A stretch of 59,795 nucleotides of DNA from a virus (taxonomy: Duplodnaviria > Caudoviricetes), in IMG/VR virus record IMGVR_UViG_3300047548_000345, positions 1-59,795 of that record; one strand, 5' to 3'. The translations under genes were made by a program, and so were the position numbers. Position 1 is the stretch's first letter. The number at the start of each line of letters is the position of its first letter. Of this stretch, positions 12,632 through 38,937 are shown one piece after another. Under the pieces are notes generated by a model that worked only from the letters and a program-made list of their open reading frames with translations, did no database searches and had not been told where the DNA came from.

Positions 12632-12706
12632 TGGCGAAGGTCCTAGGAATCGAACCTAGTTCTCAAGGTTTTGGAGACCTGCGGATTACCATCTTCCCCG
12701 ACCGAC
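12632..12706 (-). tRNA. tRNA-Trp(CCA)
   Basis: Loop CTCCAAA, G73; two acceptor-stem mismatches. Confidence 0.8.
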
Positions 12707-13897: not shown

Positions 13898-14827
13898 TTA
13901 GTTGATTACTTTCCAGCCTTCGATATTCTTAGCCTTTTCTTCACTCGAAAGAGGAACATAATCTAACTCATCTGCCATTGTGTCACCTTTTTCATAAGCC
14001 CACTTGAAAAAGTCAAGAGCCAACTTAGCCTGTTCTTTGTTAGTAGGATTCTTATGCATCAGAATGTATGTCGGTGCAGCAATAGGCCAGTCTTTCTGAA
14101 AACTTTCTTTGCCTGCTACAATCACCTTGTCAACAACTTTCAATGAAGTATAAGCGATTTGGTTCTGTTTGGCAAATGCATACTCAACATAGCCGATAGA
14201 AAACTTTGTTTGCTTGACATTTCCTGCTACGCCTTCGTTACCTTTTGCACCGATGCCAACTGGCCATTCAATAGCCGCAGCAGCACCAATCTTAGTATTC
14301 CATTCTTGACTTACAGAGGACAAATACTTGGTAAACAAGTAGGTGGTTCCGCTGCCGTCACTTCGTCTTACTACAAGAATAGTTTGATTAGGCAGATTTA
14401 CATTAGGGTTCAAATCTGTGATACGCTTATCATTCCACTTTGTAATCTTACCAAGGTAAATGTCTGCAACAACATCACCAGTCAAAACTAATTGATTAGA
14501 CTTGATACCATCAAGATTGAAAACAACCACGTTGCCACCGATCACCATTGGAAACTGGTGTAAGCCATCTTTATCCAACTGAGTCTGTGTTAAAGGCATA
14601 TCTGTTGCGCCGAATGTAACGGTCTTAGCCTGAATTTGCTTAATGCCTGCACCACTTCCTACAGATTGATAATTGACTGTGATGCCAGTTTCTTTACGAT
14701 AGGCATCTGCCCACTTTGCATAAACTGGATATGGAAATGTCGCGCCTGCTCCTGTTACAGTTTTATCCTGTGCGTGTGCTAGTGTAGTCGATAATGCTAA
14801 TACTAAACCAATAATTGTCTTTTTCAT
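13898..14827 (-). CDS. pstS: Phosphate-binding protein PstS
   Basis: GAGATFPYP, YQSVGSGAG, FGATD, RRSDGSGTT, GAKGNEGV, IGYVE. Confidence 0.95.
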   Translation of the reverse strand: MKKTIIGLVLALSTTLAHAQDKTVTGAGATFPYPVYAKWADAYRKETGITVNYQSVGSGAGIKQIQAKTVTFGATDMPLTQTQLDKDGLHQFPMVIGGNVVVFNLDGIKSNQLVLTGDVVADIYLGKITKWNDKRITDLNPNVNLPNQTILVVRRSDGSGTTYLFTKYLSSVSQEWNTKIGAAAAIEWPVGIGAKGNEGVAGNVKQTKFSIGYVEYAFAKQNQIAYTSLKVVDKVIVAGKESFQKDWPIAAPTYILMHKNPTNKEQAKLALDFFKWAYEKGDTMADELDYVPLSSEEKAKNIEGWKVIN

Positions 14828-14843
14828 TTTTCACCTTGTGATT

Positions 14844-14920
14844 TGGTGCCCGTGGTCAGACTCGAACTGACACTGTAGAGATTTTAAGTCTCCCTTCTCT
14901 GCCGATTGGAATACACGGGC
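14844..14920 (-). tRNA. tRNA-Leu(TAA), short variable loop
   Basis: Loop CTTAAAA, A73, CCA. Confidence 0.85.
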
Positions 14921-15555
14921 GAAATTCTTCCTTTAGTATAACCTAATTGTAGCCATTTGTCAAGATCAGACTTCATGACCTTTTTATTCTCTTTACCGTC
15001 ATTCATCCAGCAAGTGCCATATTGACTATTTTTTTCACCGGACTGTTTACCTAGCGATGAGGCTTTCATCTTTTCTATGGTTTCTACGGTATGTTTTTTA
15101 CCTTTCCATATACCCAAAGGATATTTTTGTCTTAGAGTTTCGTGACCTTTTTCAGAAAGTTTTCTCATAAAGGTCTTTTCATCATCTTCCTGACATTTCT
15201 TTTTTCTATATTCAGAAAGTTTCTTTATTCTTTTCTTATGAGATTCTGGTGTGCGATCTTTATTATTCATACCGTTGCGGTTAATGAAGCTGAAACCTCC
15301 ACTACCACCTTCATTAAGATTATACGTTTCTTCTGAAATTATAACAAGTTCTTTTTCTTTCATATTCATTTCAGTTTCAGTTTCGAAAACATGGAGTATT
15401 TCTTTTGTGAAGTTTTCGACACCGTATTTTGCAAAGGCTCTTTTTAAGAGTTTACCAGAACCCATGTAATCATCATTCAAATCTTTTGTTTGATGTTTAC
15501 CAATATAATACTTACCGTTTATGTTATTTGTAATTTTATAAACCGTAAAAAACAT
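14884..15555 (-). mobile_element. GIY-YIG homing endonuclease (Seg-like, NUMOD3)
   Basis: VYKITNNINGKYYIGKH, YMGSG, YNLNEGG, GKKHTVETIEKM. Confidence 0.9.
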
Positions 15556-15567
15556 AAAAGTGATCTT

Positions 15568-16293
15568 CTAGATTGTGTAGTTTTTACATTCTTCTAATGT
15601 AGGTATTATAACAATGTTATTGTATTGAGTCAATAGACAATCAATCTTTTCTTTTTGTGCTTTTATAGCAGCTGGATTTTTTGGATCCAGATAGAGGTTG
15701 TATTCTGGCAAGAAAAAATCTGGGAAATAATTATGATATAAGCCTTTTTTATCTATCCATTGTATCGGGTCAGGTCTTGTCCATGTTATTTGAAGGTCGT
15801 CCAATCTTTTTGCAAGTTCAAGTTCCCAGGTCGAATCTAACATTATACCATTATATACTATAATGTTTCTCTGTAATCTCCTATGCTTAGACAAGCGGGC
15901 TTTTTCACTCATTACTTGTTTAGTCTTTTCAGAATGTTTTTTACCTAAGAAACTATCATATTTGATATGTTTATATTTGCCTTCGTTGTGCGCTTTCTTT
16001 ATTTTTTCACTTGCTTTTTTTCTTGCTTCCGGCGTGTTCATAGCATCAATACTAATATGTCTAGCATTATTGACATATTCATCTCTCTTAGGATTCAATG
16101 AACACCATCTTGAATGGTTAGCCATCCATCCTGATGGTTTATCGGACAAATCAAAAATTTCTTGACAATACTTACATTTACCTTTTATATGATTAGAATC
16201 GTATGAACCATCGCAAGATATGAAATGTCTATTATAATTTCCGCCGCGATTAGAAAAATAACCGTTACATTTTATACACAGCGTTTTTTTCAT
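15568..16293 (-). mobile_element. Putative homing endonuclease (Zn finger + NUMOD3 + PD-(D/E)xK domain)
   Basis: GKKHSEKTKQ; DSTWE...YFPDFFLPEYNLYLDPKN. Confidence 0.75.
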
Positions 16294-16311: not shown

Positions 16312-16394
16312 TGGCGCGAACGGAGGGAGTCGAACCCCCATTTTCAGCTCCAGTTACGATTAGGGAGGTAGAAGCTCCCCTCGGCTACGTTCGC
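16312..16394 (-). ncRNA. tRNA-Arg(TCT)-like RNA lacking a D-arm
   Basis: Perfect 7-bp acceptor, G73-CCA, T-arm TTCGACT, anticodon hairpin GGGAG-CTTCTAC-CTCCC only ~8 nt after the acceptor. Confidence 0.75.
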
Positions 16395-16420
16395 ATATCA
16401 CTACTTATATAAAATGAACC

Positions 16421-16450
16421 TATCTTTCTGTCCAGTTGAGCTACGCAGCC
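16421..16450 (-). pseudogene. 5' fragment of a tRNA (Arg-like D-loop)
   Basis: GGCTGCG-TA-GCTCAACTGGACAGA with no matching 3' half. Confidence 0.5.
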
Positions 16451-37334: not shown

Positions 37335-38227
37335 TCTCCGTAAAGTTCTTCAATTTTTGTTTTGAGATGAGGTACGCGATCATATTGATGAACGATAACA
37401 TATTTCTTATTTTCATTCATACTTGTAACCGTACCATCTTCATTGATCACGGGTTGATTATCTTCATAGAGTGCTTCATATCGAGAAGGATCATCATTGA
37501 AAATAACGCCAAGATCACCACGACCAGCCTTGACTGCTTCAACTGTAGTGCCTAACTGAATAGCCCAGTTATCACTGTTGTTTGTGAAGAGTGTGTCCAT
37601 GTTATATGGTTGGAAATTGATCAGAAAGTTGAATACAGCCTGATCAACAATAGGAATAGGTCTATTCACACTCATTTGAAAGATCATCAACATCAAATCA
37701 CGAACAAACTCAAAGTTACCGGCAATGGTACCAACATTATATATCATCTTTTCTTTGAGAATATTATGAAAGTAAGGACCAAATGTATCGTGCAAGTTCT
37801 TATTACCCCAAGGTTCATTCTTGTATCTCAGACCTTCCGATGAACAGACGAGGAATGAACCCATGCAATTATCATAGAGCCAATCTGTTGGATTAGTTTG
37901 AAATACTACATCGCGGGTATCTGTAGTAATGAGATGGGTGTATTGCTTAGGATCAAGAGAGTTGAGATAGTTCCACATATAGAAAAAGCGTTCAACATGC
38001 GGCGCACCGTTATTATGTGCAACGACACTACCATCATCTTGCATTTTACCATATAGAGATAGTAACACACCTTCTTGTGTTAGCTTTTCAATTGTTTCTT
38101 TTGACATATTGGTGCCAACAATAGCAACGTCACCGTCAAAACCGCTTTTCTTGATTGAGTTGACCCAGTATTTCAAGTCATCCCATGTGTAGTTTGAGGC
38201 GCCGCCAATAATCAAATCTTTAGCCAT
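37331..38227 (-). CDS. Putative glycosyltransferase
   Basis: TTDTRDVVFQ.NP, DQAVFN, IVHQYDR. Confidence 0.65.
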   Translation of the reverse strand: MAKDLIIGGASNYTWDDLKYWVNSIKKSGFDGDVAIVGTNMSKETIEKLTQEGVLLSLYGKMQDDGSVVAHNNGAPHVERFFYMWNYLNSLDPKQYTHLITTDTRDVVFQTNPTDWLYDNCMGSFLVCSSEGLRYKNEPWGNKNLHDTFGPYFHNILKEKMIYNVGTIAGNFEFVRDLMLMIFQMSVNRPIPIVDQAVFNFLINFQPYNMDTLFTNNSDNWAIQLGTTVEAVKAGRGDLGVIFNDDPSRYEALYEDNQPVINEDGTVTSMNENKKYVIVHQYDRVPHLKTKIEELYGD

Positions 38228-38937
38228 GGATAATCACCCTTATAGAAGTTGTTATAATATTCGTTACCTTTTAAGAAGAAGTCTGCGGATACAGAACCTG
38301 GATTACCATCTAGTCTGTAGCAAAGCGTTCTCTTACCGCTAGTGTCATGTTTAGTTTGCTCTCTGATAAGATTGAAGAAACGACGATCACCACCCCAACC
38401 AGAGTGCCAGAGTTGACTTACTTGAATTAGAAACTCACGACGAAAAGCATATGAAGATGTATCGACAAGATAATGCTTTTCTGGTTGTTCATTGGTGAAA
38501 TAGATTGGCCACTTGCCAAGTGCTTCACAGTTATCATCAATTGCGAAAGATTTATCAGGATTATGAATAGAACGAAGTGAATAAGCAAAGTCTAGAGATT
38601 TTTCCTCAATGGTCTTGACCAATGTTTCTACATGATCAGGCTGATACCAATTGTCTTCATCAAGAAAGAAAATGTAATCTGAGGAAAGCAAATGAGGATA
38701 TGCTGCGTAGATACGATGACCATAGAAACCTGCGCCGCCAGTATTTTCAGGAGAAACTGTAACTTGTAATTTATTTGAGGCTTGAACAAATCTAATTGCT
38801 TTGTTAAAGTAATCAGGTCCATCAATAACTACCAGATGCTTTATATCTTCATAAGTTTGATTCTTGACGCTTTCAACGGCATCAAGTAATTTATCAGAAC
38901 CAATTGTCGGTGTGATAACAGCAACTTTACTCATCAA
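38212..38937 (-). CDS. GT2 glycosyltransferase
   Basis: VITPT, SVKNQTY, VVIDG, FFLDEDN. Confidence 0.85.
   Translation of the reverse strand: MMSKVAVITPTIGSDKLLDAVESVKNQTYEDIKHLVVIDGPDYFNKAIRFVQASNKLQVTVSPENTGGAGFYGHRIYAAYPHLLSSDYIFFLDEDNWYQPDHVETLVKTIEEKSLDFAYSLRSIHNPDKSFAIDDNCEALGKWPIYFTNEQPEKHYLVDTSSYAFRREFLIQVSQLWHSGWGGDRRFFNLIREQTKHDTSGKRTLCYRLDGNPGSVSADFFLKGNEYYNNFYKGDYPWLKI

What the first reader, a model, noticed from the sequence alone, without database searches (positions are those of the whole stretch)
16312..16394. Rearranged tRNA-Arg(UCU): no D-arm, D-loop-like segment relocated 3' of the anticodon arm
Seen: GCGAACG-TAGC-CGA-GGGGAG-CTTCTAC-CTCCCT-AA-TCG-TAACTGGA-GCTG-AAAAT-GGGGG-TTCGACT-CCCTC-CGTTCGC-G-CCA. 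Acceptor, T-arm and anticodon hairpin are intact. TAGC/GCTG and CGA/TCG can extend the anticodon helix, bulging out TAACTGGA. That reads like an Arg D-loop with G18 G19 A20, and A20 is an established ArgRS identity element. No canonical Arg tRNA is in the window. Inference: a new tRNA topology that rebuilds the elbow from the opposite strand, acting as a nuclease-resistant tRNA or as a decoy.
Basis: partly seen in the sequence, partly recalled or inferred. Interest (0 to 1): 0.85.

Follow-up and report, generated by a model that had tools for sequence, protein, structure and literature searches.

The report
Phage arginine tRNA with relocated D-loop
A phage gene encodes an arginine tRNA whose D-loop lies on the far side of the anticodon arm; it belongs to a large, mostly unannotated family of rewired phage tRNAs.

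Summary
Window 16312-16394 (- strand) encodes an 83-nt RNA with a 7-bp acceptor stem, a canonical T arm, a UCU anticodon hairpin, discriminator G and CCA, but no D arm 5' of the anticodon arm. It is one member of a large family. I collected 180 distinct relatives by covariance model, plus 34 by a further pattern scan. They come from viral contigs and from cultured Vibrio, Caulobacter, Microbacterium and Maribacter phages, where they are unannotated. Covariation supports four D-stem-like pairs (10-11 and 12-13) interrupted by an 8-nt bulge, U-A-R-N-N-G-G-N. That bulge behaves like a D-loop. Its third base covaries with the last linker base, as in an R15:Y48 Levitt pair. The base after GG tracks identity: A with Arg anticodons, U or G with Ile-type anticodons. 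The "Arg-only" impression came from my own search patterns. The best reading is a functional AGA-decoding tRNA-Arg with a rewired core. The nuclease-resistance and decoy ideas are untested, and the decoy idea fits poorly. No RNA or charging data exist. Ten literature searches found no description. I rate it a new variant of a known kind, of high interest.

The parts
16312..16394 (-). Whole gene: non-canonical tRNA-Arg(UCU), 80 nt plus encoded CCA
   Evidence: Sequence. Rfam tRNA 32.2 bits. Family model R1 95.8 bits.
16388..16394 (-). Acceptor stem, 5' strand (RNA nt 1-7); pairs with 16316-16322
   Evidence: All 7 pairs covary; 99.3% of cells paired.
16386..16387 (-). U8 A9, invariant
   Evidence: TA in 183 of 183 distinct model hits, and not imposed by any search pattern.
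16381..16385 (-). D-stem-like 5' strand (nt 10-14). Nt 10-11 pair with nt 47-48; nt 12-14 pair with nt 36-38.
   Evidence: Pair counts. Pairs 10, 11 and 13 covary, pair 12 is an invariant CG, and pair 14 forms in 43 of 86.
16363..16380 (-). G15 (26-like, mostly G:U with nt 33), 5-bp anticodon stem and 7-nt loop CUUCUAC; anticodon UCU at 16370-16372
   Evidence: RNAalifold also predicts this stem.
16357..16362 (-). U33 (44-like), two-base bulge A34 A35, then nt 36-38, the 3' strand of the lower D-stem-like pairs
16349..16356 (-). 8-nt bulge UAACUGGA: the D-loop equivalent (U, A14-like, A15-like, N, N, G18-like, G19-like, A20-like)
   Evidence: Levitt-like covariation. The base after GG tracks the anticodon's amino acid.
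16345..16348 (-). G47 C48 (pair with nt 11 and 10), then the invariant U49 G50
   Evidence: The UG is absent in several divergent members.
16340..16344 (-). Linker AAAAU; the last U is the 48-like partner of the A15-like base
16323..16339 (-). T arm: 5-bp stem and loop UUCGACU
   Evidence: 98.1% of cells paired. T-loop tally.
16312..16322 (-). Acceptor 3' strand (16316-16322), discriminator G (16315), encoded CCA (16312-16314)
   Evidence: CCA follows the discriminator in 76 of 125 relatives.

Best explanation
This is a functional elongator tRNA-Arg(UCU) gene of a large freshwater phage. It belongs to a widespread, phage-borne class of tRNAs with a rewired core.

Anatomy:
- The acceptor stem, T arm and anticodon arm are canonical.
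- The four D-stem pairs (10-25, 11-24, 12-23 and 13-22 in standard numbering) still form.
- The anticodon arm caps the 13-22 end of that stem.
- The D-loop is extruded as an 8-nt bulge between positions 23 and 24, that is, 3' of the anticodon arm.

Inferred working:
- Acceptor and T stems stack as usual.
- The bulge supplies A14, R15, G18, G19 and A20, so the usual elbow and core contacts can form (U8:A14, R15:Y48, G18/G19 with the T-loop).
- The host ArgRS charges the RNA through A20, C35, U36 and G73.
- It reads AGA, and probably AGG.

Shown here: the helices (by covariation), the Levitt-like covariation, and the link between the nucleotide after GG and the anticodon's amino acid. Inferred: folding into an L shape, processing, charging and decoding.

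Why phages keep this form is unknown. My leading guess is that ArgRS and IleRS tolerate the rearrangement because they read position 20 and the anticodon, and that the variant then spread among phage tRNA clusters.
For: Family size: 180 distinct non-canonical model hits in about 1.86 Mb of fetched loci, plus 34 distinct sequences (6 of that scan's 41 loci were already held). I read members in cultured phages directly: Pumpernickel and Zooman, Vibrio PG07, Vibrio D423 (84 bits), Maribacter Panino and Caulobacter Ccr10. None is annotated in its record.

Structure: covariation in all stems and in D-stem-like pairs 10, 11 and 13.

D-loop equivalence:
- R15/Y48-like pair: AU 88, GC 8, other 1 of 98.
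- With both bases left free in the pattern: 25 G/C, 9 A/U, 0 discordant of 34.
- U8 and the A14-like base are invariant, 98 of 98.

Identity:
- Every row with an Arg anticodon carries GGA. The tally is UCU 89, ACG 37, UCG 22, CCU 13, GCG 1, plus one mis-parsed UCU. My regex mis-read some rows, and I checked those by eye in the listing.
- The 34 sequences found with A excluded after GG all carry Ile-type anticodons (UAU 27, GAU 5, CAU 2), with U (27) or G (7) after GG and discriminator A in 32 of 34. The other 2 were parsed one base out of register.
- Arg discriminators are G 62, A 52, U 47, C 2. This fits A/G/U73 for bacterial Arg in PMC9976931 (passage seen).

Decoding role:
- Several phages carry 2-3 members with different Arg anticodons (L015, L090, L038, L205).
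- Of 55 loci that also hold a separate ARAGORN tRNA-Arg, 40 share no anticodon with the non-canonical one.
- In the 45-kb stretch of PG07 that I scanned, the other 18 ARAGORN tRNAs include no Arg.
- AGA makes up 177 of 641 Arg codons in the window's long ORFs.
Against: - There is no evidence of a mature RNA, of charging or of decoding; no RNA run holds the stretch.
- Thermodynamics does not favour the extra helices. RNAalifold run de novo predicts only the acceptor stem, the 5-bp anticodon stem and the T stem. Single-sequence MFE holds all four D-stem-like pairs in 7 of 86 sequences, with mean pair probability 0.13-0.17. The anticodon and T stems reach only 0.35-0.41.
- Pair 14-36 forms in only half of the sequences.
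- The 3-D arrangement is unresolved. By my own counting, if the D-stem-like helix stacks on the anticodon stem, the arm is 1-3 layers longer than in a canonical tRNA, and one nucleotide must span from G19 back to the helix.
- 15 of 55 loci hold a canonical tRNA-Arg with the same anticodon, so the gene is sometimes redundant.
- Most Arg members were collected with patterns that required TAA, GGA, TG and AAAT. Conservation of those motifs in that subset is therefore circular.
Confidence: 0.8

Rival explanations
1. It is a tRNA-derived decoy or regulator. The RNA is made, and perhaps charged, but its job is to soak up a host tRNA-directed nuclease, a modification enzyme or ArgRS rather than to decode.
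For: The body is unusual while the anticodon loop is strictly canonical. The gene lies in a phage tRNA cluster interspersed with endonuclease genes. 15 of 55 loci also carry a canonical tRNA-Arg with the same anticodon.
Against: A decoy would not need five different Arg anticodons or Ile versions. It would not need discriminator and position-20 nucleotides that follow the aaRS identity sets, nor anticodons that differ from the canonical Arg genes in 40 of 55 loci. No partner nuclease is known or was found.
Confidence: 0.1
2. It is an ordinary tRNA with a degenerate D arm and a long, unstructured variable region, as the Rfam alignment reads it. On this view the UAACUGGA segment is not a D-loop equivalent and the extra helices are incidental.
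For: Rfam aligns it this way at 32.2 bits. RNAalifold predicts no extra helix. The MFE is not better than shuffles.
Against: Pairs 10, 11 and 13 covary with the "variable" region. The third bulge base covaries with the last linker base, 34 of 34 concordant when both are left free. The base after GG follows the amino acid.
Confidence: 0.06
3. It is a decaying tRNA pseudogene or recombination scar with no function.
For: A tRNA 5'-half remnant lies just upstream (16428-16450), so tRNA debris does occur at this spot.
Against: The same layout occurs in 180 distinct sequences, with compensatory changes in every stem, across phages of four bacterial phyla. CCA is encoded in 76 of 125.
Confidence: 0.02

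Closest known systems
Canonical bacterial and phage tRNA-Arg(UCU), e.g. the annotated tRNA-Arg-TCT of Caulobacter phage Ccr10 (L011 445-522)
   Same: A 7/5 acceptor/T branch, a UUCRA T-loop, a CUUCUAN anticodon loop, A after G18G19, a G/A/U discriminator, encoded CCA, and a place in a phage tRNA cluster.
   Different: The D-loop lies 3' of the anticodon arm as a bulge in the 3' strand of the D-stem, and the anticodon arm caps the D-stem. ARAGORN misses 193 of 217 members.
D-armless mitochondrial tRNAs, e.g. [quoted passage not shown]
   Same: No D arm between the acceptor stem and the anticodon arm, and an anticodon helix that starts right after nt 8-9.
   Different: In those tRNAs the D-loop is lost and replaced by a short connector, the T arm is short, and they depend on adapted organellar factors. 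Here G18G19 and position 20 are kept but relocated, the T arm is fully canonical, and the carrier is a phage of bacteria.
Class II tRNAs with long variable arms (Leu, Ser, bacterial Tyr)
   Same: About 22 nt lie between the anticodon stem and the T stem, and this is how Rfam aligns the element.
   Different: The region forms no stem-loop of its own. It pairs with nt 10-13 and carries the D-loop motif.
Allo-tRNAs and (8/4) tRNA-Ser/His of bacteria and their phages (PMC5389517; abstract and passages seen)
   Same: Non-canonical tRNA shapes found in metagenomes and in phage tRNA clusters.
   Different: Those alter the acceptor/T split (8/4 or 9/3) and keep a D arm. This class keeps the 7/5 split and rewires the D region.

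Membership tests
tRNA (Rfam RF00005, canonical cloverleaf) | 7-bp acceptor stem, unpaired discriminator, 3' CCA | tested here: met
   7 of 7 pairs covary and 99.3% of cells pair. CCA lies at 16312-16314.
tRNA (Rfam RF00005, canonical cloverleaf) | T arm with a 5-bp stem and a 7-nt UUCRA loop | tested here: met
   (98.1% paired); T-loop tally.
tRNA (Rfam RF00005, canonical cloverleaf) | Anticodon arm with a 5-bp stem and a 7-nt loop carrying U33 and purine 37 | tested here: met
   Loop CUUCUAC; family loops; stem covariation.
tRNA (Rfam RF00005, canonical cloverleaf) | D arm (a stem closing a G18G19 loop) between nt 10 and 25, 5' of the anticodon arm | tested here: not met
   The Rfam alignment replaces 13 model positions with 3 nt. 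The GG motif lies 3' of the anticodon arm.
tRNA (Rfam RF00005, canonical cloverleaf) | Score at or above the Rfam gathering score | tested here: met
   32.2 bits against 29. The PG07 homologue is not reported at the gathering threshold.
tRNA (Rfam RF00005, canonical cloverleaf) | Charged and used on the ribosome | not testable with these tools
   No RNA run holds the stretch; there are no biochemical data.
Bacterial tRNA-Arg identity set (A20, C35, U/G36, A/G/U73; PMC9976931, passage seen) | C35 with U36 or G36 | tested here: met
   Anticodon UCU in the window. All Arg members carry NCU or NCG anticodons.
Bacterial tRNA-Arg identity set (A20, C35, U/G36, A/G/U73; PMC9976931, passage seen) | A directly after G18G19 | tested here: met
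   GGA in every Arg member, including those found by the model alone. U or G in all 34 Ile-type members. Whether ArgRS can reach this base in its new position was not tested.
Bacterial tRNA-Arg identity set (A20, C35, U/G36, A/G/U73; PMC9976931, passage seen) | Discriminator A, G or U | tested here: met
   G in the window. Family tally: G 62, A 52, U 47, C 2.
D-armless mitochondrial tRNAs | D-loop lost, short connector, reduced T arm, organellar origin | tested here: not met
   The GG motif and a full T arm are kept. The carriers are phages.
Class II tRNAs | A self-contained variable stem-loop | tested here: not met
   The region pairs with nt 10-13 instead.
Allo-tRNAs (8/4, 9/3) | Acceptor stem of 8-9 bp with a T stem of 4-3 bp | tested here: not met
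   The split is 7/5.

The most novel reading that the evidence does not exclude
This is a previously undescribed tRNA fold class restricted to phages, with the D-loop transposed to the 3' side of the anticodon arm. It is charged and used in translation for Arg and Ile codons. Its rewired core is an adaptation: it keeps aaRS identity and the elbow while escaping host factors that read the canonical D stem, such as tRNA-directed defence nucleases, turnover or modification enzymes.
Probability: 0.25. Interest if true: 0.9.

Novelty: new variant of a known kind. Interest (0 to 1): 0.8.

Why it matters
- The tRNA core is among the most conserved RNA architectures. A natural, widespread class that keeps the tertiary contact set but changes the strand order would show that the L shape can be built from a different topology.
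- Such a class is also a possible scaffold for orthogonal tRNAs.
- Standard finders miss it: ARAGORN missed 193 of 217. Phage tRNA repertoires, including those of cultured T5-like vibriophages and phiCbK-like Caulobacter phages, are therefore under-counted, and Arg and Ile look absent where they are present.
- If the rewiring protects the tRNA from host factors, it adds a new route to the phage-host conflict over tRNAs.

Tried and rejected
- "Arg only": my first scans gave only Arg anticodons. All of those patterns required GGA. The covariance model then found Ile (GAU, UAU), CAU and one Lys (CUU) member with GGU. A scan that excluded A after GG gave only Ile-type anticodons. I withdrew the claim.
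- ARAGORN calls the PG07 element tRNA-Arg(CCG). I rejected this: it takes nt 36-38 as the anticodon, with no U33 or purine 37, and those bases covary as a helix.
- Expression: no RNA holder is listed for the stretch, and I did not lay reads.
- Earlier scan notes: no look-alike by sequence, and nothing relevant by words.
- Split-tRNA idea for the upstream 5' half: no T arm plus matching 3' acceptor strand exists anywhere in the window.
- Cellular origin: a type-A pattern scan of one genome per species gave 23 stretches. 15 are real, all on MAG contigs, and 10 of those 15 have 5-19 tRNAs within 8 kb. The other 8 are chance hits, including all 3 isolate genomes. This covers only that pattern.
- Literature: ten searches found no description. 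Every D-armless hit is mitochondrial. PMC7609411 has 0 occurrences of "phage" and PMC8450103 has 0. Only open-access papers and preprints are searched, and supplements were not available.
- A K-turn at the internal loop was considered by eye only and dropped, because the GA/AG order does not fit.

Full report
**What is at the site.**
- ARAGORN reports 14 canonical tRNAs on the same strand between 5.4 and 14.9 kb, none for Arg, and does not call this element.
- Rfam's tRNA model reaches 32.2 bits (gathering score 29) only by shrinking the D arm from 13 positions to 3 nt and inserting 20 nt before the T arm.
- The window is a 59.8-kb fragment of an IMG/VR viral contig, estimated 36% complete. 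It is 40% G+C.
- Its genes include a DNA polymerase, a DnaB-like helicase, an SbcC-like nuclease and structural genes. Near the element lie a PstS-like gene, a GIY-YIG SegE-like endonuclease and, immediately downstream, an endonuclease-like ORF (15568-16293).

**Relatives.** BLAST against GenBank phages found the central part of the element in Microbacterium phages Pumpernickel and Zooman. There it is intergenic and unannotated, inside tRNA clusters.
- I built a covariance model (R1) from 87 aligned 80-nt members and ran it over about 1.86 Mb of fetched loci. It gave 231 hits of 34 bits or more, 183 of them distinct. Three of these are canonical tRNAs scoring 35-38 bits, which leaves 180 non-canonical sequences.
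- I read members directly in Vibrio phage PG07, Vibrio phage D423 (84 bits), Maribacter phage Panino and Caulobacter phage Ccr10. None is annotated as a tRNA in its record.
- BLAST lists 324 GenBank records with a partial match at E up to 1, of which 296 are Vibrio phages. I verified only the records named above.
- ARAGORN gives no call for 193 of 217 hits and the right amino acid and anticodon for only 6.

**Secondary structure.** The covariation score is 0.796 (shuffled 0.200, 0 of 500 shuffles as high; slid partners 0.12-0.15).
- Pair 13 shows GC 77, AU 5, CG 3, GU 1. Pair 12 is an invariant CG.
- Pair 14-36 forms in only 43 of 86.
- U8-G and A9-U never vary, and the TG was required by my patterns, so these two pairs are untestable.
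- The upper two pairs are not universal. Among 125 parsed pattern hits, 93 have two bases after GGA, 14 have one and 18 have none.

Results against the extra helices:
- RNAalifold run de novo predicts only the acceptor stem, the 5-bp anticodon stem and the T stem.
- Single-sequence MFE contains all four D-stem-like pairs in 7 of 86 sequences, with mean pair probability 0.13-0.17.
- The anticodon and T stems reach only 0.35-0.41 by the same measure.
- The support for these helices is therefore evolutionary, not energetic.

**The bulge behaves as a D-loop.** The bulge reads U, A, R, N, N, G, G, N. This is the pattern A14-R15-N16-N17-G18-G19-N20 with one extra leading U. Three observations tie it to the canonical core.
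1. U8 and the A14-like base are invariant (98 of 98). U8 A9 is present in 183 of 183 hits without being imposed, including divergent members that lack the UG.
2. The R15-like base covaries with the last base before the T stem. Counts are A/U 88, G/C 8, other 1 on the model alignment, and A/U 166, G/C 10, other 3 over all hits. Because most A/U cases were imposed by my patterns, I ran a scan that left both bases free. All 34 distinct sequences were concordant: G/C 25, A/U 9, discordant 0. Neighbouring bases do not pair consistently, so this looks like a single Levitt-type pair and not a helix.
3. The base after GG follows the amino acid (next section).

**Amino-acid range and identity.** My first tallies showed only Arg anticodons. 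That was an artefact of requiring GGA in the patterns.
- The model also found members with GAU (6), UAU (8), CAU (2) and CUU (1). All of them carry GGU and discriminator A.
- The scan that excluded A after GG returned only Ile-type anticodons: UAU 27, GAU 5, CAU 2. The base after GG is U in 27 and G in 7, and the discriminator is A in 32 of 34. The other two were parsed one base out of register.
- Every member with an Arg anticodon has GGA. The tally is UCU 89 plus one mis-parsed, ACG 37, UCG 22, CCU 13 and GCG 1. This includes members found by the model alone.
- Arg discriminators are G 62, A 52, U 47, C 2.
- These patterns match the bacterial identity sets in Table 1 of Giege and Eriani 2023 (PMC9976931; passages seen): A20, C35, U/G36 and A/G/U73 for Arg, and A73 and U20, among others, for Ile.

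**Function.** The evidence fits decoding tRNAs.
- Several phages carry two or three members with different Arg anticodons.
- In 40 of 55 loci that also hold a separate ARAGORN tRNA-Arg, the anticodons do not overlap; in 15 they do.
- In the 45-kb stretch of Vibrio phage PG07 that I scanned, the other 18 ARAGORN tRNAs include no Arg.
- AGA makes up 177 of 641 Arg codons in the window's 48 long ORFs.
- CCA is encoded in 76 of 125 members.
- Nothing here shows a mature RNA, charging or decoding. No RNA run holds the stretch.

The three-dimensional arrangement is open. By my own counting, about nine stacked layers lie below the bulge, against ten below a canonical D-loop, so the bulge leaves the helix at about the right height. 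In type-A members, however, two more pairs sit above it, and only one base links G19 back to the helix.

**Distribution.** A type-A pattern scan of one genome per prokaryotic species gave 23 stretches.
- 15 are real. All lie on MAG contigs, and 10 of the 15 have 5-19 tRNAs within 8 kb.
- 8 are chance matches, including all three isolate genomes.
- With that limit, the class looks virus-borne.
- Hosts of cultured carriers span Actinomycetota, Alpha- and Gammaproteobacteria and Bacteroidota.

**Is it known?** Ten full-text searches found no description.
- A 2020 review of non-canonical tRNAs never mentions phages (PMC7609411; term search).
- The tRNAscan-SE 2.0 paper mentions neither phage nor virus (PMC8450103).
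- The allo-tRNA paper reports 8/4 Ser and His tRNAs in phages, a different change (PMC5389517).
- Subscription journals and supplements were out of reach, so prior description cannot be excluded.

**Verdict.** The functional reading is revised to a bona fide tRNA-Arg(UCU) of a rewired, phage-borne tRNA class.

Noticed in passing
window 16402-16450 (- strand): Directly upstream of the tRNA lies a tRNA 5'-half look-alike (acceptor strand, U8 A9, D arm) at 16428-16450, with no 3' partner anywhere in the window. Relatives L105, L074 and L093 keep it, two of them with a perfect D arm, followed by a conserved TATAAATA motif (TATAAGTA in the window, 16402-16409) 7 nt before the tRNA 5' end. From memory, the motif resembles the T4 late-promoter consensus. 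It may be a remnant of a disrupted tRNA gene plus a promoter.
   Followed up: partly
L191 18185-18602 (Vibrio phage PG07, record about 38184-38601): Rfam GOLLD RNA at 189.9 bits (gathering score 150) inside the phage's tRNA cluster. It is not annotated in the record.
   Followed up: no
L011 352-432 and 168-242 (Caulobacter phage Ccr10): Between the non-canonical Arg(ACG) and the annotated tRNA-Arg(TCT) lies another unannotated tRNA-like stretch. It has an acceptor stem, a T arm, CCA and a CUCCGAA loop (CCG, Arg), but an oversized D region, and ARAGORN does not call it. ARAGORN also calls an unannotated tRNA-Ile(aat) at 168-242.
   Followed up: no
L004 1952-2042, L037 918-1008, L044 4102-4190: Longer family members (89-91 nt) carry an extra insertion in the linker between the bulge and the T stem. 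In two of them it looks like a small hairpin, so some members have a D-loop bulge plus a variable arm.
   Followed up: no
L191 19747-19829 (Vibrio phage PG07): ARAGORN calls this family member tRNA-Arg(ccg) through a wrong fold that takes nt 36-38 as the anticodon. It gets the right amino acid for the wrong reason; the hairpin loop reads ACG.
   Followed up: yes
window 13898-16293 (- strand): The tRNA region is interspersed with a PstS-like phosphate-binding gene (13898-14827), a GIY-YIG SegE-like endonuclease (14884-15555) and an endonuclease-like ORF (15568-16293). The last is syntenic with the tRNA in relatives L105, L074 and L093.
   Followed up: partly
window 12635-12706 (- strand): The window's tRNA-Trp(CCA) scores only 34.9 bits on Rfam's tRNA model, against 54-67 bits for the other 13 canonical tRNAs.
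   Followed up: no
L038 11003-11080; L099 2612-2688; L154 2786-2862: Single family members carry a Lys (CUU) anticodon and two carry CAU, all with GGU and discriminator A. The CAU ones may be lysidine-type tRNA-Ile.
   Followed up: no
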